From Waterburya sp. (GTDB lineage Bacteria > Cyanobacteriota > Cyanobacteriia > Cyanobacteriales > Xenococcaceae), in contig CBDCJV010000002.1 in NCBI GenBank assembly GCA_965217895.1, positions 1,984,001 to 2,048,000 of the forward strand: DNA of 64,000 bases. Direction: 5' to 3'. Position 1 is the first letter of the stretch; every line of letters begins with the position of its first letter. The position numbers were made by a program, and so were the translations under genes. This document shows positions 11,151 through 19,500 of the stretch, one piece after another. A model generated the notes under the pieces. It was not told where the DNA came from and searched no databases. It saw only the letters and a list, made by a program, of their open reading frames with translations.

Positions 11151-11762
11151 GTGAAAAGATCGATCAAAGACAAGATTACAGCACTTGTTTTGGCTGGAGG
11201 CGAAAGTTCTCGTATGGGACAAGATAAAGCCTTGTTAGCCATTAAAAACAAAACTTTGCTGTCTCAAATTTGTTTAACTGCTAGTGAATGCGTTGCTCAA
11301 GTTTATGTAGTCACACCCTGGATTGAAAAATACCAGGAAATTTTACCTCCAGACTGTCAGCTAATTGAGGAAAAGCTAGTTTTAAATGCTAAATCCAACA
11401 CGCCTTTGATTGGCTTTGCACAAGGATTAAAGATAGTTAATACAAAATGGGTATTGTTATTAGCTTGTGACCTGCCTCAGTTGTCTTCGTCTCAAGTAAA
11501 ACAGTGGTCGCAAATTTTGGCAACAGTATTACCCACAGAAATTGCTTTGTTACCCCGTCATCCTAAAGGTTGGGAGCCTTTGTGTGGTTTTTATCGTTCT
11601 AGTTGCTTGTCGTTGTTAGAATCTTATCTATACGATGGTGGTCAATCTTTTCAAGACTGGCTTAATAAGTACCCTGTCAGAGAATTATCGACTAGCGATC
11701 GCGCTTGTTTATTTAACTGTAACACTCCTGATGACTGGAAATTGTTCCAAGAAAAGAAATAA
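11151..11762 (+). CDS. mobA: Molybdenum cofactor guanylyltransferase
   Basis: LAGGESSRMGQDKA, LACDLP, WEPLCGFY and FNCNTPDDW motifs. Confidence 0.93.
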   Translation: MKRSIKDKITALVLAGGESSRMGQDKALLAIKNKTLLSQICLTASECVAQVYVVTPWIEKYQEILPPDCQLIEEKLVLNAKSNTPLIGFAQGLKIVNTKWVLLLACDLPQLSSSQVKQWSQILATVLPTEIALLPRHPKGWEPLCGFYRSSCLSLLESYLYDGGQSFQDWLNKYPVRELSTSDRACLFNCNTPDDWKLFQEKK

Positions 11763-11824
11763 AAGCAAATTTTTTTTGACACAGATTACTATGGGTTTCT
11801 AACTAGATGTGGTTTAGTATCACT

Positions 11825-12138
11825 CTAAAGCTGAACAAAATTGGTACACTTTTTATTGCTTTGGAGTGGTTCAGCGCAGGCTCGAATTTCGATATCTTTA
11901 CCTGAAGCCATGTCTGCATAATGTCTTTGCTACTGATCTACAGGAACAACAGCCGTACCATATTTCTTTCCTTGGCATTCTTCAATATAGTGACTTGAAC
12001 CAGGAGGAGCTTCAGTTCTTGCCCAAGTAGCCTGACAAATTGGCGAGTAACGAATTTCTAATCTATAAGCTTTAAGTAGATCTGGCTTAAGCTGATAGTT
12101 GCCAGTATCTGAGGTGATAGTTTGAGAAATGCGATCGC
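11825..12138 (-). pseudogene. DUF2690-like protein fragment
   Basis: LEIRYSPICQATWAR motif; internal stop and terminal frameshift; the frame begins at HIP1 12131-12138. Confidence 0.65.
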
Positions 12139-12208
12139 CGATATTTTTCTTAACTGAAAGATGACCAAGGTAATCAAAGCTAGCAAGCAGACCAATTTAA
12201 AATCAATT

Positions 12209-12757
12209 TTAGTCGAATAATAAATACCAAGATTCTCTGGTAAGTTGCCACTCAATTTGATTCCAGCCGCGATCGCTCATCCAATCTGGACTAGGGCGTG
12301 TGCCAATTTTAATAAAACCATATCGCTTTGCCAAACGCGCAACCCGCAAATTTGCACTGACAGAAATACCTCTAATCTCTTTTAAACCCAGATCGTTAAA
12401 ACCAAACTCAATTAAAGCTTTGCCAACTTCAATTGCATAAGCGTAACGACTCCAAAACTGCGGTGCTAATTCAATTCCCATTTCCGCCTTATGCGAATCG
12501 TAATTCTCGCGACGTAGCCCACAACAACCGATTAAATTTAAGTTTCGGCGATCGATAATAGCAAGTTGATAATTGCAACGGGGACTTTCAGTTGCCCATT
12601 GAGTAAAAAGATTGAGTAATTCTCCTGTATGGCTAGGTGATACCTCTTCTGGCGCACAAAACTCAGCATATTTGGGATCGCCATGATAGGCAAAAAATGC
12701 TGATTCATCTTTTTGGATAAAGTCTCGTAGAAGAAATCTATTGGTAAAAATCTCCAT
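12209..12757 (-). CDS. GNAT family N-acetyltransferase (RimJ/RimL-like)
   Basis: TNRFLLRDF, LIGCCGL, AEMGIEL, FGFNDLGL..I motifs. Confidence 0.85.
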   Translation of the reverse strand: MEIFTNRFLLRDFIQKDESAFFAYHGDPKYAEFCAPEEVSPSHTGELLNLFTQWATESPRCNYQLAIIDRRNLNLIGCCGLRRENYDSHKAEMGIELAPQFWSRYAYAIEVGKALIEFGFNDLGLKEIRGISVSANLRVARLAKRYGFIKIGTRPSPDWMSDRGWNQIEWQLTRESWYLLFD

Positions 12758-12776
12758 ATCATTTTCAAGTAAAAAC

Positions 12777-13268
12777 TTAAGCTAAACGGAAAGCGATCGC
12801 AAATGCTGTTGTTGCTCCAAATGCTGCTATTGTGCGAACATGATTCCAAAGTGTCCAGTTCGTTAGGTATTTAGCCCATAAACTTGCGCCTTCAGCACTA
12901 CTCGGATCGACTTTTGCTAAAGCATCGTTTAACGGTACATTAAAGGCGATCGTTACTCCAACAGTACCAACGATATAAAGTAAGCTGCCAACGAGTAAGT
13001 AGATTGAATTTGGTTGATGAAACTTTAACAGAGAAAAAACAGCTAGAAAAAGGCAAACTACAGCCGTACCAAACAATGCGGTCATAAACAAGGGATTAAT
13101 TACAGTAATGTTAATAGACTGCATGGCAACAATACCCTCTGAAGGTTTTAGTCGAGCAAGAGCTTTCATCACAAAAGACGAGAAAGCAAAAAAAACTCCA
13201 GCCACTAGTCCAGTTCCCAGTATGGCAAAAAGCTGTAATAACAAAAATGATTTATTATTTATCAGCAT
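12777..13268 (-). CDS. DUF1772 / anthrone oxygenase family membrane protein
   Basis: GLVAGVFFAFS..VM.AL, AMQSIN, NVPLN..L and WNHVRT motifs; start placed at ATG 13268. Confidence 0.85.
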   Translation of the reverse strand: MLINNKSFLLLQLFAILGTGLVAGVFFAFSSFVMKALARLKPSEGIVAMQSINITVINPLFMTALFGTAVVCLFLAVFSLLKFHQPNSIYLLVGSLLYIVGTVGVTIAFNVPLNDALAKVDPSSAEGASLWAKYLTNWTLWNHVRTIAAFGATTAFAIAFRLA

Positions 13269-13344
13269 ATAAATCTCCGATGATTGTGCTAATTCATTTT
13301 TAGATAATTTAGCAGTGAGAAAGGCAATCGGGTAAATTAAGAAA

Positions 13345-13857
13345 TTAGAGGTTATTGGGTTGTTGCCTCGGATTCCATATAAATAATTTCCCAAATATGA
13401 CCATCTAAGTCTTGAAAACCATGAGCATACATAAAACTGTGGTCTTGCGGTTCATTGTAAGTTTTCATCTACTGACCGTATTAAAGCCGTAGGAGATTGA
13501 TGCTTTTACTGCTTGGGTTGCAATTCCTCTTCCCCAATATGCTTTTGCTAAACTGTAAAGAACTTCAACTTCATCTAACTTATTTAAATAACGCAGACCA
13601 CAATAGCCAATCATTTGAAGTAAATCATCTTTTGTAATAGCCCAAATTCCATATTCTCGCTGTTGCCAATGCTCAACAAAAGATTGAAGCGATTTTTCGA
13701 CATTTTCTCTAGAAATTGGGACTCCTCAACTTGGAAGAAAACGAGTTACTTCAGGATTGCCCCAAATTGCTGTCAGAGCATCCAAATCTAATAGCTGAAT
13801 TGGTCGCATTATAAAACCGTCAATCTGCAAAACTGTTGGCTCGGCAAGATTTGTCAT
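13345..13857 (-). pseudogene. GNAT (RimJ/RimL) acetyltransferase pseudogene
   Basis: Manual translation MTNLAEP...NPEVTRFLPS*...HWQQREYGIWAI...IGYCGL...EVEVLY...YWGRGIAT with frameshifts and stops; 3' boundary approximate. Confidence 0.75.
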
Positions 13858-13964
13858 TACAATATTTTCAACTACTCTATTGTTTGTTTATAGGGCAAAT
13901 TAAACCAACATTATCGATTATTTTTCTGCATTTCTTAAGTACTTGTGGCAAAAAACCAGATTCT

Positions 13965-15347
13965 CTATTTAATTAATAAGGTAAACCAAAAAGTTGTTCC
14001 CGAACCTGGATTACTAATTACGCCGATTTCTCCACCATGAGCGTTAATAATTTGACGACAAAGATATAATCCCAATCCTAAATTTACATTACATCGCTTA
14101 CCGTATCCTTGAAAGTACCGTTTAAATAGCTGTTGGCATTGTTGGAAACTCATACCAACGCCGTCATCTTGAATTTGGCAACGGATGAATTTTTGCTCAC
14201 CTTTATTCTCGATCGCTTCAGCACTAATAGTTAAATTGACTCCTGGAGGATTATGATTTAAAGCATTAGCAATCAAGTTTTGTAAGACTCGCCATAGCTG
14301 ATGTGGATCGCCTTGAATTAGGGGTAGCTCGTCGCTAATATAGTTAGTAATCGCAGCTCGATTTTTGCTAATTAATGGTTCTAATTCGGTAATAAGATCG
14401 GCGACTAAATAACTTAGTTGCAGTGACTCAAGCTTGATCGCAAATCCCTGTACTTTATTTCCATAAATTTCTAGAAGAGAATCGATTAAGTTTAATTGGC
14501 GATCGCTTCCTTGAATCATTCTTTCAATCACACGGCGCGGTACGGGTACTAGATCGGATTCTGGTTGAGCATGGCGATGATTTTCCAATAAACTATTCAG
14601 CGTTAACACCATTCCCGTAACTGGATTGCGTAGATCGTGGGAAACGGCGTGTAAAAAAAGCTGAATTTCACGACGAGATTCTAATTCAGCAGATTTGAGA
14701 CGTTCGTATAAATATACTCCCAGATTACAAATCAGACAAATCCAAGCAATATAAATAGGAACTGTGGGTAAATAAGATAAGGTTCTGGCTTCAACCAAGC
14801 CCATTCCTATGTTAACTACAAAAAAGTAAATTAATACTCCTAATTGAGAGAGTAAATGTAGTCGCCAGCGCACGGGAATAAAAATTGCCTGAGTTAAAAA
14901 TACTAAAGTCCAAAACCAAACTTGTTCGTTAGCTGCGCCTACTAAAGTAAGTAAAATTTGGTCAACCAAAGTAATCGACCAAGAAGTGCCGATAAAAACT
15001 ACTCCTGGATGATTTTTGCCGAATTTACTGCGATGCAAAGCCAAACACCCGATTAAGCAAATGGCGATCGCAGCTTCGATAACTAAATTGTAGCTTTCGC
15101 AAAGTTCCGAACCATTAGTACATTCGCGAATACTTAAACTCAAAAGCGCGAAACTTGCCACACAAAACAAAGCAATCCCAATGACTAAGGGCAATCTTTG
15201 ATATAGAAAATAGTTACGCCAGGTTTGCTCGTCTAAACTAAGATCGTTTTCTATAATTAAATCAGACGAAAAAATCGTTGTATTCAAAAGAATCTGAATT
15301 TTTTTGGCAAACCTTTTTTTGGCTCTTAGTAAACTGACTATAGGCAT
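13965..15347 (-). CDS. Membrane-bound sensor histidine kinase
   Basis: 5-6 TM helices; H-box VSHDLRNP, N-box NLIANA, DDGVG and GLGLYLC. Confidence 0.92.
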   Translation of the reverse strand: MPIVSLLRAKKRFAKKIQILLNTTIFSSDLIIENDLSLDEQTWRNYFLYQRLPLVIGIALFCVASFALLSLSIRECTNGSELCESYNLVIEAAIAICLIGCLALHRSKFGKNHPGVVFIGTSWSITLVDQILLTLVGAANEQVWFWTLVFLTQAIFIPVRWRLHLLSQLGVLIYFFVVNIGMGLVEARTLSYLPTVPIYIAWICLICNLGVYLYERLKSAELESRREIQLFLHAVSHDLRNPVTGMVLTLNSLLENHRHAQPESDLVPVPRRVIERMIQGSDRQLNLIDSLLEIYGNKVQGFAIKLESLQLSYLVADLITELEPLISKNRAAITNYISDELPLIQGDPHQLWRVLQNLIANALNHNPPGVNLTISAEAIENKGEQKFIRCQIQDDGVGMSFQQCQQLFKRYFQGYGKRCNVNLGLGLYLCRQIINAHGGEIGVISNPGSGTTFWFTLLIK

Positions 15348-15386
15348 AAAAAAGTTTTAATTCACATTGTTATGAGCGATCGCTTA

Positions 15387-15635
15387 TCACGCTACCATCA
15401 TGCCATTTTTCCAAAGCTCATACTCACTCAGATCGATATCTTCATTCCACACAATCCCGTAGCCCCCTTGCTCAACCTTAAAGTTTTTGAAAAATGCAGG
15501 TTGACGAAGTGGAGCAAATATGGGATTTTCTAAAAGATGGAAAATATCACATTTCTTGACTTCTTGATTGGTAAATTTAATCACTAAGGTGCGATCGTTA
15601 ATTGCTTCTGCCTTGCAAATTCGAGGGCATTTCAT
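15387..15635 (-). CDS. DUF2442 domain protein (orphan)
   Basis: L.IKFTN.E.K..D, F.PL....FF...V..GGYGIVW...DL pattern. Confidence 0.8.
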   Translation of the reverse strand: MKCPRICKAEAINDRTLVIKFTNQEVKKCDIFHLLENPIFAPLRQPAFFKNFKVEQGGYGIVWNEDIDLSEYELWKNGMMVA

Positions 15636-15682
15636 ACTATTTTTAGTCTACTTTTCTGCATTGTAGTAAGAGATAGGGTTTG

Positions 15683-16168
15683 TCAAGTGCGATCGCCATT
15701 TTCAGGTATTTCAACTAAGACAGAAAGCACCAGCGCAGCCAACCCCATAATCTTAATAATGGCATTTGTGGCATGGGTATATTCCCATTGGTTACGATAT
15801 TTCATCCAATCCACTGGAAATGATGTTGGTGTCCATTTAGCTAGTTCGGCATTGACAGGTGCGATAAACGCGAACCAAAGCATGAGTGCCAGTACCACAC
15901 AAATTGCTCCTACTAAAGTCCAATAGAAAGTTACACCACGTCTAAATAAAAGTAAAACCAAAACAATCGCCGTGAGTACCGAGCCAACTTCAATAACTGC
16001 ACCAACAGTACCAAAAAGATAATATAAACCTTTAGTAGTTATTGTTATCCAAAGTTGCGCGTCAAAATAAAAAACTCTGGGTGGTAGCTCTAATAAATGG
16101 CAAAAAGACAATCCCGTACTGAGAGCAGTCAGCATAATAGAGACAAAACGCCATGCTTTTATCGGCAT
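15683..16168 (-). CDS. DUF1772-like membrane protein
   Basis: HLLELP, PVNAEL..W and W..YRNQWEYTH motifs; start placed at ATG 16168. Confidence 0.75.
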   Translation of the reverse strand: MPIKAWRFVSIMLTALSTGLSFCHLLELPPRVFYFDAQLWITITTKGLYYLFGTVGAVIEVGSVLTAIVLVLLLFRRGVTFYWTLVGAICVVLALMLWFAFIAPVNAELAKWTPTSFPVDWMKYRNQWEYTHATNAIIKIMGLAALVLSVLVEIPENGDRT

Positions 16169-16245
16169 ATTTACGCTCTTTTCTTTAAGATACATTTGAT
16201 TTCTCTCCAGCCGTCGAACTTTTAAAAAGCTTGACACAAATCAAA

Positions 16246-16923
16246 TTATGGCTTAAATCCCCAACAGGCATAGCTAGTTGCCCTAGCTAATCCAAGCGGA
16301 AATTGCTGAAAGCGAATATCTTTTAAACCAGCATCAGTCATTATTTCAGCTAAATCTTTTTGAGTAAGACAATTATTGCCCCAGTGTAATTGGACACAGG
16401 AGCTTAATAACCCCCAACGGCTGACTGACAAAATTAGTGGAGCTTGAGGTTTAAGTATTCTGACCATTTCCTTTAGTCCGACTATTGGTTCTGGTAAATG
16501 CTCCAAAACATGAGCAGCAATGACAAGATCGAAGCTGTTATCTGCAACAGGAATTGCTATTAAATTAGCGCGAGTTATTCGAGCCTTGATTCGAGCCTGT
16601 TGCAGATTTTGTTGTGCCGTTAGCAGCATTTGCGGAGAAATATCGACCCCAGTAACATTTAACCGACTCTGAATTTGTGCTAAAGCCAAGCTAAAAGCTG
16701 CTGTGCCAATACCACAATCGCAGACAGTTGAATTTCCTCCCAGCTTTATTACGCCCGATGCTTGAAGCGACTCAAACAAGCTAAGATAAGCACGAAAATA
16801 TCCCAATCGTAGAATTTGATGATGCCAGTTGCGAGCAGCGTCATCGTACATAGATTTTATCTGGTCGTAAGTCGGATAAACTCGCTGAACCGAAATTTGC
16901 CACCAGCCAACTGTGAGTTTCAT
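16246..16923 (-). CDS. Class I SAM-dependent methyltransferase
   Basis: DCGIGTA, GVDISPQML, FDLV...HVLEH and RILKP motifs. Confidence 0.88.
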   Translation of the reverse strand: MKLTVGWWQISVQRVYPTYDQIKSMYDDAARNWHHQILRLGYFRAYLSLFESLQASGVIKLGGNSTVCDCGIGTAAFSLALAQIQSRLNVTGVDISPQMLLTAQQNLQQARIKARITRANLIAIPVADNSFDLVIAAHVLEHLPEPIVGLKEMVRILKPQAPLILSVSRWGLLSSCVQLHWGNNCLTQKDLAEIMTDAGLKDIRFQQFPLGLARATSYACWGFKP

Positions 16924-16998
16924 AAAATTAATCTGATGTAACCTCGAACTGTCTTAAAATTACACCAAGCAGCAAAGAGCGCACTTCCTGCGACTGGC

Positions 16999-17014
16999 TC
17001 ACTCGATTGGGTGA
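16999..17014. promoter_or_regulatory. Candidate NarL/LuxR-type response regulator operator
   Basis: Imperfect palindrome TCACTC-N4-GGGTGA about 76 bp upstream of the methyltransferase start. Confidence 0.4.
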
Positions 17015-17046
17015 TATTAATTAAATTGAGCTAGATGGAATAATAA

Positions 17047-17703
17047 CTATAGCAGCCCCGACCTCAGAGCGATTACAGCAGCTTGAACGCGATCGCTCAC
17101 AGCTAGTTTATTCATTACTCCCTTAACGTGAGTTTTCACGGTGTTAGTACTTAAATAAAGTTGAGCAGCAATTTCAGGGTTGCTACAGCCTTCGACAATC
17201 AGTTTTAATACTTCTAGTTCTCGCGAAGATAAGTTAGCACTGCTCGATGTCTGCGGTGATGGCGATTTAAGATTACCCATTACTTGTTGGGCAATTTGCG
17301 GATCGAGATAAACCCCTCCATCTTGGGCAATGGCGATCGCTGTTAATAATCGCTCTACTTTGACTCCTTTGATACAGTAAGCATCTGCACCACTAGCAAG
17401 AGCAGCGATTACTTCGGTTTTATTGGTATGAGAAGTTAGTATTACTACCCGAACCTTAGGCAAAGCTTTTTTAATCTCTTGGGTAACGGCTATGCCATCG
17501 AGGCGAGGTAAGCCAATATCGACGATCGCTAAATCGGGCTGAAACTTAATTGCATCTTCTACAGCTAAATAGCCGTCATCACTAAATCCTACTATCTCCC
17601 ACTCGGATTTTTTTGCTAGAATTTGTTCCAATCCCATTTGCATCATCGGATCGTCTTCAACAATTAAGACCCTTAGTTTGGAAGAATTAGATTGAAGATT
17701 CAT
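17047..17703 (-). CDS. NarL/LuxR family DNA-binding response regulator
   Basis: REC domain (VEDD, VDIGLP, YCIK) plus LSSRELEVL...IAAQLYLSTNTVKTHV HTH. Confidence 0.93.
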   Translation of the reverse strand: MNLQSNSSKLRVLIVEDDPMMQMGLEQILAKKSEWEIVGFSDDGYLAVEDAIKFQPDLAIVDIGLPRLDGIAVTQEIKKALPKVRVVILTSHTNKTEVIAALASGADAYCIKGVKVERLLTAIAIAQDGGVYLDPQIAQQVMGNLKSPSPQTSSSANLSSRELEVLKLIVEGCSNPEIAAQLYLSTNTVKTHVKGVMNKLAVSDRVQAAVIALRSGLL

Positions 17704-17723
17704 CTTAATTTTGCCTCACCTAC

Positions 17724-17949
17724 CTACCGAGTTTGAAAGATATTCTTTCTGTATCATTGGCTTGTCTATTCGGGCTGCTGCACGATCTAATTCTGCTACT
17801 TCTCTTGCGTCTAGTTGCCAGTCTTTAGCAGCAATATTTTCTTGCGTTTGTTGAATATTCTTTGCTCCAGGAATGAGAATTGCACCTTTAGCGATGCACC
17901 AGTTGATAGCTACTTAAGACATAGTTTTCTGGCGGTATAAAGCGATCGC
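17724..17949 (-). pseudogene. Aldo/keto reductase C-terminal fragment
   Basis: AIA..RQKTMS*VAINWCIAKGAILIPGAKNIQQ..EN...DWQL; begins at or next to HIP1 17942-17949. Confidence 0.75.
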
Positions 17950-18021
17950 CTGTATTCTCAAACTAGAGTAATGCGTAGCGTTGCCATGTCTTAAGTTTAT
18001 CGCTTTTTGCTGAGATGTAGC

Positions 18022-18089
18022 GCGATCGCGCTTGTTTATTTAACTGCAATACTCCTGATGACTGGCAAATGTTTAGACAAAAGGATTGA
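18022..18089 (+). pseudogene. Displaced second copy of the mobA 3' end
   Basis: Translates DRACLFNCNTPDDWQMFRQKD*, versus DRACLFNCNTPDDWKLFQEKK* at the end of mobA. Confidence 0.85.
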
Positions 18090-18195: not shown

Positions 18196-19500
18196 GTGAT
18201 TAAATCTCGCTCCCAACCCAGAACAACTAATTCCCCTAAATTTAAGCTCAAATATTTGGGACGGCAAATATTAGATTCGCTTTATTCTTGGCGACGGCTA
18301 GACTGGTTTTTACTTGTATCAGTAGTTGGTCTAACTATCTTTGGTGGTTTTACTATTTACAGTACAGAATCCTCTTCAACTCATAGCTATAGCTATCAAC
18401 ATTGGACAATTAGCCTCTTAGGTTTAGGATTAGTTTTGTTTTTGTCCCGTTGGCGTTATCAGTCTCTATTGCGCTGGCATTGGCTGATTTATGTTCTGAC
18501 TAATCTTTCTTTGATTGCGGTGATGATTACTGGGGTAACTGCAAAAGGAGCGCAGCGTTGGATTACGGTGGCGGGATTTAATGTTCAGCCCTCAGAGTTC
18601 GCCAAAATTGGCATGGTAATTACTCTTGCTGCCCTGTTACACAATCAAGATGGAGCAAATTTAAAAACGGTTTTACGCACTCTGGCAATTACAGCAATTC
18701 CCTGGGGACTAGTGTTTTTACAGCCCGATTTGGGTACTTCTTTAGTGTTTGGCGTAATTGTATTGACCATGCTGTACTGGGCTAACGTTAATACGGGTTG
18801 GTTAATTTTAATGACTTCTCCCTTAGTTTCAGCTATTCTTTATCACCTTTATCTGCCTGGATGGTTGATTTGGGTTCTAGCTGTAGGAGGAGTTGCCTGG
18901 CTGACTTTACCTGCAAAAATTGTTTCTACCCTCAGTGCGATCGCTATAAATTTGGGCGCGGTAGAATTGGGCAATGTTTTCTGGGGACTGCTTAAGGATT
19001 ATCAACAAGCTAGACTTACTATGTTTCTCGATCCCGAACAAGATCCTTTAGGTAACGGCTATCATTTGATTCAGTCTCGAATTGCGATCGGCGCAGGTAA
19101 ACTTTGGGGACAGGGATGGCATCAAGGAACACAAACAAACCTTAATTTTATTCCCGAACAGCACACTGATTTTATTTTTTCGGCTGTAGGAGAACAGTTT
19201 GGTTTTATTGGTAGTATTCTCTTGCTAGCAGTGTTTTGGTTTATTTGTATGCGTCTAATGTGGATTGCTTCTACCGCTAAAGATAATTTTGGCTCTTTGT
19301 TAGCCATAGGTATTCTCAGTATTATTGCTTTTCAAGCCGTAATTAATATTAGTATGACTATCGGACTTGCACCCATTACAGGAATTCCTCTACCCTGGAT
19401 GAGCTATGGACGATCCTCCTTGTTATCTAGTTTTATTAGTATTGGCTTGGCAGAGTCAGTAGCTAATCATCGAGAAAGCAAAACTAGAAAATCTTACTAA
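18196..19500 (+). CDS. rodA: Rod shape-determining SEDS protein RodA
   Basis: GAQRWI, QPSEFAK, LQPDLGT, PEQHTDFIF and TGIPLPWMSYGRSS motifs. Confidence 0.93.
   Translation: MIKSRSQPRTTNSPKFKLKYLGRQILDSLYSWRRLDWFLLVSVVGLTIFGGFTIYSTESSSTHSYSYQHWTISLLGLGLVLFLSRWRYQSLLRWHWLIYVLTNLSLIAVMITGVTAKGAQRWITVAGFNVQPSEFAKIGMVITLAALLHNQDGANLKTVLRTLAITAIPWGLVFLQPDLGTSLVFGVIVLTMLYWANVNTGWLILMTSPLVSAILYHLYLPGWLIWVLAVGGVAWLTLPAKIVSTLSAIAINLGAVELGNVFWGLLKDYQQARLTMFLDPEQDPLGNGYHLIQSRIAIGAGKLWGQGWHQGTQTNLNFIPEQHTDFIFSAVGEQFGFIGSILLLAVFWFICMRLMWIASTAKDNFGSLLAIGILSIIAFQAVINISMTIGLAPITGIPLPWMSYGRSSLLSSFISIGLAESVANHRESKTRKSY

What the first reader, a model, noticed from the sequence alone, without database searches (positions are those of the whole stretch)
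11825..17949. Island cargo looks like a co-oriented cassette array with HIP1 sites at the junctions
Seen: all ten genes and fragments are on the minus strand. HIP1 sites lie at the break of the DUF2690 fragment (12131), at or near the break of the AKR fragment (17942), in the last codons of both DUF1772 genes (about 12793 and 15689), and between DUF2442 and the kinase (about 15376). The cargo (two GNATs, two DUF1772s, a methyltransferase, an orphan DUF2442) resembles integron-cassette cargo, but I see no attC sites or intI. Inference: serial gene accretion and deletion using HIP1 as the crossover, an integron-like system without a local integrase.
Basis: inference. Interest (0 to 1): 0.75.

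Follow-up and report, generated by a model that had tools for sequence, protein, structure and literature searches.

The report
Gene island spliced at HIP1 palindromes
A 6-kb block of genes sits inside the end of a cyanobacterial housekeeping gene, and it and several pieces within it begin or end exactly at the long-unexplained HIP1 palindrome, which likely served as the joining point when foreign DNA was spliced in by ordinary host recombination rather than by an integron.

Summary
The island is real and larger than reported (11695-18021). It sits at a HIP1 site in the mobA tail, between two 62-nt, 87%-identical copies of that tail that start at HIP1; four relatives and contigs of three unrelated runs have the empty site. 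Five of 13 mapped homology boundaries fall exactly on HIP1 edges (DUF2690 tail, both ends of DUF2442, AKR tail, island end); another species has an exact HIP1-to-HIP1 deletion in the same cluster. But it is not an integron-like array built gene by gene: six genes are already collinear elsewhere in a relative, eight boundaries ignore HIP1, site 12793 is no junction, co-orientation is ordinary, and there is no IntI or attC. Genome-wide, HIP1 edges 16 of 74 local duplications and 4 of 39 clean insertions (alignment ends about 30-fold enriched), but 0 of 670 small-indel ends; a smaller replicate was not significant. Best reading: HIP1-joined circles entering by single crossover through a short gene tail. 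Whether HIP1 is recognised or merely the commonest GC-rich microhomology is open. The scan noted the same pattern earlier in other cyanobacteria; my literature searches found no genome-wide account.

The parts
11151..11762 (+). mobA-like NTP transferase, target gene; intact, its last ~20 codons are the left repeat copy
   Evidence: PF12804 E 5e-28; flanks collinear in G017, G019, G020, G023
11695..11756 (+). left direct repeat: HIP1 plus 54 nt of mobA tail
   Evidence: 87% to right copy
11825..12138 (-). 3' remnant of a Ser/Thr kinase-DUF2690 gene, starting exactly at HIP1 12131-12138, one internal stop
   Evidence: PF10901; homology ends at HIP1 in G004, G008, G048, G049, G050; full gene is Pkinase+DUF2690
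12209..12757 (-). GNAT acetyltransferase 1; 12227-12818 is 100% identical to a second copy near C2:795.6-796.2 kb
12777..13268 (-). Anthrone_oxy (DUF1772) gene a; HIP1 12793 in its last codons is conserved coding sequence, not a junction
13352..13462 (-). 3' remnant of a glyoxalase gene, fused to GNAT2 by a deletion that is not at HIP1
   Evidence: 96% to G017 glyoxalase tail; junction
13466..13857 (-). GNAT acetyltransferase 2, pseudogene (internal stop, truncated)
   Evidence: PF13302 read with X at the stop; homologs 70-77%
13965..15347 (-). membrane histidine kinase
   Evidence: HisKA + HATPase_c; collinear in G017
15376..15696 (-). HIP1-to-HIP1 module with orphan DUF2442 gene (15387-15635); absent in G017 and in an X3 contig
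   Evidence: donor-type copies in G049, G047, G010, G051, G005 carry a HIP1 at the same 3' position; paired with DUF4160 in G049
15683..16195 (-). Anthrone_oxy (DUF1772) gene b; last codons changed by the DUF2442 module at HIP1 15689
16246..16923 (-). class I SAM methyltransferase
17047..17703 (-). LuxR/NarL-type response regulator; its HIP1 17333 is joined to kinase HIP1 14499 by a deletion in G052
17725..17949 (-). 3' remnant of an aldo/keto reductase starting exactly at HIP1 17942-17949; 92% to the resident gene at C2:1808085-1808306; one internal stop
17942..18029 (.). 88-nt HIP1-to-HIP1 spacer holding a ~36-nt dispersed repeat
18022..18083 (+). right direct repeat: HIP1 plus displaced mobA tail, continuous with the rodA upstream region
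18196..19500 (+). rodA/ftsW-family gene, right flank, adjacent to mobA in the empty site
   Evidence: PF01098

Best explanation
Shown: the empty site, the duplication starting at HIP1, and exact HIP1 edges at the DUF2690 tail, the DUF2442 module and the AKR tail. Inferred: the circle, the single crossover, natural transformation as the route, and that the three end-to-end HIP1-bounded pieces (11695-12138, 12131-17949, 17942-18029) were joined in earlier rounds of the same process. The gene cluster in the middle piece was mostly pre-assembled elsewhere and was further shaped by events that ignore HIP1 (a deletion at 13462, homologous exchange with a second copy of GNAT1/DUF1772a). No dedicated recombinase is needed: HIP1 is by far the commonest GC-rich exact match between any two pieces of this DNA.
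For: Empty site in 4 of 4 close relatives with overlap starting at HIP1 and in contigs of X3, X4, X10. Five of 13 boundaries at HIP1 edges (nominal P 9e-8, but the locus was chosen for this trait). Exact HIP1-HIP1 deletion in the same cluster in G052. Unselected tests: against 1.6 Mb of G023, HIP1 is the terminal 8-mer of 16 of 1466 alignment ends (2.9 expected): 5 of 78 at clean insertions >=300 nt (0.15 expected), 9 of 456 at synteny breaks (0.9), 0 of 670 at small indels; 16 of 74 two-copy local direct repeats of this chromosome have HIP1 at an edge, 13 versus 0-2 in shifted controls; 4 of 6 such loci tested are empty in a relative with the same geometry. Duplication rather than deletion is what recircularised DNA plus single crossover gave in E. 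coli (56 of 60 clones, 109-950 bp; PMC3240628, passages). HIP1 is 60% of chance matches among 8-mers with >=6 G/C. A ComEC-family frame of 751 aa is present.
Against: No donor with mobA next to DUF2690, or AKR next to the regulator, was found among 38 other genomes of the genus, and no circle was observed, so the route is untested. 8 of 13 boundaries and 35 of 39 clean insertions are not at HIP1. The 400-kb replicate against G019 gave 2 of 372 exact ends (0.72 expected, P=0.16) and 0 of 14 at clean insertions. 2 of 6 repeat loci had no collinear empty site. 62 nt is short for RecA crossover (established knowledge). Matches do not extend beyond HIP1 more than chance (31 of 42 with no extra base, 30.5 expected), which a purely length-driven microhomology process would not predict. 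The dprA-like gene of this assembly lies in two frames. In X3 the empty DUF2442 site is a 7-of-8 HIP1.
Confidence: 0.5

Rival explanations
1. Linear, homology-facilitated illegitimate recombination (HFIR): transforming DNA is anchored by long homology upstream of and across the mobA tail, and its far end is joined at a HIP1 microhomology to the recipient's own HIP1 inside the anchor, giving the same product without a circle.
For: Predicts the same sequence as observed. HFIR was proposed for integrase-free serial arrays in Vibrio T6SS clusters (PMC5361080, passages). Long anchors solve the problem of a 62-nt homology. ComEC family present.
Against: HFIR is described as integration with deletion of recipient DNA, whereas duplications came from circles (PMC3240628). 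It does not by itself explain pieces with HIP1 at both ends and an 8-nt duplication only (DUF2442; C2:3618025 and C2:504375).
Confidence: 0.2
2. A host enzyme recognises HIP1 (or its methylated CGATCG core) and cuts or recombines there, so that any HIP1-to-HIP1 interval is a potential cassette: the first reader's integron-like system acting in trans.
For: Junctions lie on the octamer with no excess flanking identity. HIP1-linked site-specific plasmid recombination in Synechococcus PCC 7002 and methylation-dependent gain in transformation are reported (PMC4390886 passages; 10.1101/2024.09.10.611283). The genome holds 10 tyrosine-recombinase matches, none in the window, and six places with C5 methylase matches (specificity not tested).
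Against: With 5798 sites on the chromosome only about 1% of alignment ends are at HIP1, so any activity is very weak. HIP1 promoted excision at similar rates in E. coli and Synechococcus and no HIP1-binding complex was found (Robinson 1997, seen only as title and summary in PMC13756078). HIP1 number or methylation did not help editing in Nostoc punctiforme (10.64898/2026.07.31.742098). Most of the array came as a block.
Confidence: 0.18
3. Chance and alignment bias: HIP1 occurs every 500-900 nt and is conserved, so alignments tend to stop on it.
For: 12 HIP1 sites in 6.3 kb; one of five named sites is no junction; the G019 replicate is not significant; the locus was selected for the trait.
Against: The null used HIP1's share among perfectly matched 8-mers, so conservation is accounted for; 0 of 670 small-indel ends, where alignments simply decay, end on HIP1; breaks inside coding sequence of AKR, mobA, DUF2690 and the G052 fusion are sharp.
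Confidence: 0.05
4. A true integron cassette array that lost its integrase (CALIN).
For: Cargo types and co-orientation resemble cassette arrays; integrons occur in Cyanobacteria (PMC4889954).
Against: No TIGR02249 match over cut-off (best 54.7 of 265 bits); only one attC-like core pair, inside the methyltransferase gene, 2 hits versus 1.4 in random windows; no repeat family between genes; a two-component pair and gene tails are not cassette-like.
Confidence: 0.02

Closest known systems
Insertion with long target duplication (Furuta, Abe, Kobayashi 2010, PMC2853133; passages and Discussion read)
   Same: Insert under 20 kb without mobility genes, flanked by a >30-nt imperfect duplication of a unique target that overlaps a gene end; empty site in relatives; one Microcystis case listed.
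   Different: Their cases were selected for restriction-modification cargo and attributed to double-strand breaks; here the cargo has no RM genes, and the duplication starts on HIP1, a word that does not occur in that paper's main text.
Single-crossover integration of trimmed, recircularised DNA with one-sided homology (Amarir-Bouhram et al. 2011, PMC3240628; passages)
   Same: Product is an insert flanked by a partial duplication of the homologous segment (109-950 bp there; 42-174 nt in the HIP1-edged repeats here).
   Different: Laboratory E. coli conjugation; circle junctions there came from nuclease trimming, here they fall on a fixed octamer.
HIP1-bounded deletion in smtB (Gupta 1993) and HIP1 plasmid recombination in Synechococcus PCC 7002 (Akiyama 1998); originals not read, seen as cited in PMC13756078, PMC4390886, PMC9239245
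   Same: Crossover between two HIP1 octamers; the G052 regulator-kinase fusion is such a deletion.
   Different: Those are single laboratory deletions or plasmid fusions; here natural chromosomal insertions with gene-tail replacement, counted across a genome.
HFIR-built orphan immunity arrays of Vibrio T6SS clusters (Kirchberger et al. 2017, PMC5361080; passages)
   Same: Integron-like look without integrase, orphaned gene ends left behind.
   Different: There one conserved anchor is reused serially; here the target is a housekeeping gene tail, most cargo came as a block, and a fixed motif marks the non-homologous joint.
Integrons and CALINs (Cury et al. 2016, PMC4889954; passages)
   Same: Co-oriented accessory genes, an orphan antitoxin-like gene.
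   Different: No IntI, no attC, no one-gene-one-site structure.

Membership tests
Integron / CALIN | IntI integrase (TIGR02249) adjacent or in the genome | tested here: not met
   No match over cut-off in G000; no PF00589 match within the window's coordinates
Integron / CALIN | At least two attC sites between genes | tested here: not met
   Core-motif scan (motifs RYYYAAC/GTTRRRY recalled) found one site on both strands inside a coding region, chance level; no Rfam match (Rfam may not hold attC). IntegronFinder's covariance model not available.
Integron / CALIN | Genes move as single cassettes | tested here: not met
   Six genes collinear as a block in G017; only DUF2442 is a single-gene module
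Insertion with long target duplication | Empty site in a relative; insert under 20 kb | tested here: met
   G017, G019, G020, G023 and runs X3, X4, X10; 6327-nt spacing
Insertion with long target duplication | Duplicated unique target longer than 30 nt | tested here: met
   62 nt, 87%, two copies in the genome
Insertion with long target duplication | No integrase or transposase in the insert | tested here: met
   Pfam of all island ORFs
Insertion with long target duplication | Restriction-modification cargo (criterion of PMC2853133) | tested here: not met
   The only methyltransferase is Methyltransf_11/25 type, no DNA methylase family hit
Integrase-encoding genomic island at a gene 3' end | Own tyrosine or serine recombinase next to the att site | tested here: not met
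   No PF00589 match in the window; no recombinase family among island ORFs; serine recombinases elsewhere in the genome not searched
HIP1-mediated recombination | Crossover lies within GCGATCGC shared by both parents | tested here: met
   18022/11695, 17949, 15376, 12138 and G052; left parent of 15689 not found
HIP1-mediated recombination | Dependence on HIP1 sequence or methylation rather than on any microhomology | not testable with these tools
   HIP1 is 3.8% of all and 60% of GC-rich chance 8-mer matches; no excess flanking identity: inconclusive without experiment
Homology-facilitated illegitimate recombination | Long one-sided anchor with deletion of recipient DNA at the other end | tested here: not met
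   Recipient DNA is duplicated, not deleted, at the island ends; anchor length cannot be seen without the donor

The most novel reading that the evidence does not exclude
HIP1 is a universal attachment site of cyanobacteria: a host activity joins DNA at (methylated) HIP1, so any HIP1-to-HIP1 interval can be looped out and re-entered, and intervals that carry a gene's tail insert harmlessly into that gene. This would give the octamer a function as an integrase-free, genome-wide gene-capture system.
Probability: 0.18. Interest if true: 0.85.

Novelty: new variant of a known kind. Interest (0 to 1): 0.6.

Why it matters
HIP1's function has been open for thirty years; recent work links it to DNA uptake and transformation (PMC13756078; 10.1101/2024.09.10.611283) but, in the passages I read, not to natural insertion junctions. 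These loci show the octamer at the exact joint of natural gene gains and losses and give a precise substrate geometry (HIP1 + 40-170 nt gene tail + cargo + HIP1) that can be rebuilt in laboratory cyanobacteria. A positive result would explain how integrase-free islands and toxin-antitoxin modules enter cyanobacterial chromosomes and could give a short-homology integration tool; a negative one would show HIP1 junctions to be a by-product of abundance.

Tried and rejected
Donor search for mobA next to DUF2690 and for AKR next to the regulator in 38 other genomes of the genus: none found. Origin of the 88-nt spacer in 150 genomes of the order: only a 36-39-nt dispersed repeat in 3. Hypothesis that a conserved attC-like repeat follows HIP1 at module ends: the 25-nt word at 15689 has one near copy in G077 and only chance-level copies in G000; rejected. 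HIP1 12793 as a junction: rejected. HIP1 enrichment in the island and co-orientation as signals: rejected. Rfam scan: nothing. First genome-wide pass on 800 kb with a loose 0-8 offset gave only 10 of 612 versus 6.3 expected; the signal is confined to the exact edge and to large events. A pairwise flank comparison with other palindromes as controls (63 one-sided pairs for HIP1; 24 for AAGCTT, 17 for ATCGAT, at lower site numbers) was not cleanly comparable and was replaced. Replicate against G019 was limited to 400 kb and is not significant. Reads of the likely source sample (X1) showed no joint across the island, but these are contigs and cannot show rare excision; no RNA holder listed. Four further repeat loci (L157-L160) were fetched but not searched. 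Literature searches for a genome-wide account of HIP1 at insertion junctions found none; subscription papers, including Gupta 1993, Robinson 1997 and Akiyama 1998, are outside the library, and no supplements were read.
Full report
Setting. The window is C2:1984001-2048000 of a 5.29-Mb, two-contig genome. GCGATCGC occurs 87 times in the window (0.38 expected) and 5798 times on the chromosome, one per 898 nt, so the organism is a HIP1-rich cyanobacterium (inference) and any claim about HIP1 near gene ends needs a null. The island itself is not HIP1-enriched (12 in 6335 nt, P=0.16 against the window).

The island's true ends. A 62-nt direct repeat, 87% identical, starts at HIP1 11695 and at HIP1 18022; it is the tail of a mobA-like gene. 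Of 40 relatives searched, the four closest (G017, G019, G020, G023; 87-94% identical in the flanks) have mobA followed directly by rodA, with the left alignment ending at 11756 and the right one starting at 18022, the first base of HIP1. Contigs of runs X3, X4 and X10 make the same 6327-nt skip (3 of 4 runs laid, the fourth is probably the source sample). mobA stays intact; the copy at 18022 is continuous with the rodA upstream region.

Internal boundaries. I mapped where similarity to homologous loci stops. On a HIP1 edge: 12138 (DUF2690 tail against full kinase-DUF2690 genes in five genomes, 69-73% identity; three further hits cover less of it); 15376 and 15689-15696 (G017 has a single HIP1 where the window has HIP1-DUF2442-HIP1; an X3 contig also lacks DUF2442, with a 7-of-8 site; five other genomes carry DUF2442 or its end with a HIP1 at the same 3' place and different sequence beyond); 17949 (AKR tail, 92% to the resident gene of this genome, 85-88% to the four relatives, ending at or within a few bases of the octamer edge in most genus hits); and 18022. 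Not on HIP1: the end of the left mobA copy, the DUF2690 stop, the GNAT1 end, the DUF1772a stop, an allele switch at 13239, the GNAT2/glyoxalase fusion at 13462, the kinase 3' flank at 13889, and the AKR-stop/regulator-start joint. That is 5 of 13, or four separate events; the nominal P of 9e-8 is inflated by selection of the locus. Site 12793 is not a junction: 12227-12818 is 100% identical to a second copy elsewhere in this genome, which points to recent homologous exchange. Independent of the window, G052 has the regulator fused to the kinase by a deletion exactly between HIP1 17333 and HIP1 14499.

Not an integron-like array. G017 holds regulator, methyltransferase, DUF1772b, kinase, DUF1772a and GNAT1 in the same order at another locus, with AraC (opposite strand), flavodoxin, glyoxalase and DLH genes between; so most of the array arrived assembled, and its uniform strand partly reflects loss of the opposite-strand gene. 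Same-strand runs of 7 or more hold 985 of 3987 ORFs of this chromosome. No IntI passes the cut-off, none of 10 tyrosine-recombinase matches lies in the window, and an attC core scan (motifs recalled) gave chance-level hits inside a gene. In four genomes of other families only the regulator, with kinases in three, was found nearby.

Genome-wide tests. Against 1.6 of 5.4 Mb of G023 (734 of 2253 alignments kept: at least 150 nt, 82%, best per place; mean 91.6%), HIP1 is the commonest terminal 8-mer. It ends 16 of 1466 internal alignment ends exactly (2.9 expected from its share of perfectly matched 8-mers): 5 of 78 at clean insertions of 300 nt or more (4 of 39 events; 3 of 38 without this island; 0.15 ends expected), 9 of 456 at synteny breaks (0.9), 2 of 262 at replacements (0.5) and 0 of 670 at small indels. 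Of four clean insertions with a duplication over 50 nt, two start exactly on HIP1, one has HIP1 three bases outside, one has none. Within G000, of 276 local direct repeats, 202 multi-copy ones were dropped; 16 of the remaining 74 have HIP1 within 4 nt of an end in both copies, 13 ends versus 0-2 in five inward-shifted controls on the 56 longer repeats. Six were tested in four relatives: four have an empty site with the same geometry (one is filled in G019), two do not. Against this: 400 kb of G019 gave 2 of 372 exact ends (0.72 expected, P=0.16; four within 3 nt, all at large events). HIP1-edged events are thus real, strongly enriched among large insertions, and a minority of all rearrangement.

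Mechanism. Each event has one joint on HIP1 and one natural continuation from the duplicated segment into cargo. In E. coli, one-sided homology gave mostly duplications through recircularised DNA and a single crossover, and only rarely the deletions typical of HFIR (PMC3240628, passages). I therefore favour a circle closed at two HIP1 sites that enters through the gene tail it carries, or directly at another HIP1 when it carries none (8-nt duplications: DUF2442, C2:3618025, C2:504375). Circle, crossover and uptake route are inferred; no donor or circle was seen. Why HIP1? It is 3.8% of all chance 8-mer matches between two places of this chromosome but 60% of those with six or more G/C, so a passive preference for stable microhomology may suffice. 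On the other hand the joints show no more flanking identity than random HIP1 pairs (31 of 42 none, 30.5 expected; only one side can be measured), which leaves room for recognition of the motif. A ComEC-family gene is present; the dprA-like gene is split over two frames.

Comparison with what is known. The structure meets the geometric criteria of 'insertion with long target duplication' but not its RM-cargo criterion (PMC2853133, passages and Discussion). HIP1-bounded deletion and plasmid recombination are old observations (seen only as cited in PMC4390886 passages, PMC13756078 part 1 of 6 and passages, PMC9239245 passages). PMC5861425 (passages) has no word 'breakpoint'. The PCC 7002 preprint (part 1 of 4 and passages) reports HIP1- and methylation-dependent gains in transformation; a Nostoc preprint (passages) found no effect. 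PMC5361080, PMC4889954, PMC2779907 and PMC5101192 were seen as passages. Five searches found no genome-wide account of HIP1 at natural insertion junctions. Earlier notes of this scan describe the same pattern in other cyanobacteria; they gave me two papers and are not independent support.

Verdict. Observation partly confirmed and extended; interpretation partly supported: HIP1 as joint yes, integron-like serial accretion no. New variant of a known kind; interest 0.6 because it makes a long-open question directly testable.

Noticed in passing
window 12227-12818 and G000:C2 about 795.6-796.2 kb (L022): 592 nt of GNAT1 and the DUF1772a tail are 100% identical between the island and a second locus, while the rest of DUF1772a is about 80-93% alike: recent homologous exchange or conversion.
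   Followed up: partly
window 13589-13652 and G000:C2:793267-793330: A 64-nt piece of the GNAT2 pseudogene recurs at 98% identity just behind the AraC gene of the second locus, with no HIP1 at its ends; unexplained.
   Followed up: partly
window 17973-18008: A ~36-nt dispersed repeat inside the HIP1-HIP1 spacer; related copies at C2:611049 and C2:2430836 and in G020, G023, G077, there in or near small toxin-antitoxin-like gene clusters.
   Followed up: partly
L172/L181 (G052:C102): Response regulator fused to the kinase 3' part by an exact HIP1-to-HIP1 deletion of 2.8 kb; the cluster there lies behind a PD-(D/E)XK nuclease gene that has a HIP1 in its last codons.
   Followed up: yes
G000:C2 2,377-2,385 kb, 3,516-3,526 kb, 4,226-4,234 kb, 4,710-4,713 kb: Clusters of HIP1-rich intergenic repeats; where ORFs were listed they are small toxin-antitoxin-like genes (labels recalled, not scanned). 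Several HIP1-edged duplications each; better candidates for true serial accretion than this island.
   Followed up: partly
L151 (G000:C2:127981-128775): A HicAB-like pair (label recalled) sits between two HIP1-started copies of a symporter-like gene tail; empty in G017, G020, G023, filled in G019; a homologous piece in G017 ends on the same HIP1.
   Followed up: yes
G000:C2:1742166-1742796: The dprA-like gene matches the family in two reading frames, a possible frameshift or assembly error.
   Followed up: no
G023:C1:600001-2200000 versus G000: Very low synteny for 91.6% identity: 456 of 1466 alignment ends are synteny breaks, and 9 of them end exactly on HIP1.
   Followed up: partly
L021 (G017:C37:2292-3654): The kinase of the G017 cluster is frameshifted near codon 407, and a decayed GNAT-like stretch plus a short inverted-repeat element lies before GNAT1.
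   Followed up: no
window 15997-17274, run X1: Lower-depth contigs with many differences cover DUF1772b-methyltransferase-regulator in the likely source sample: a second organism or allele of the cluster.
   Followed up: no
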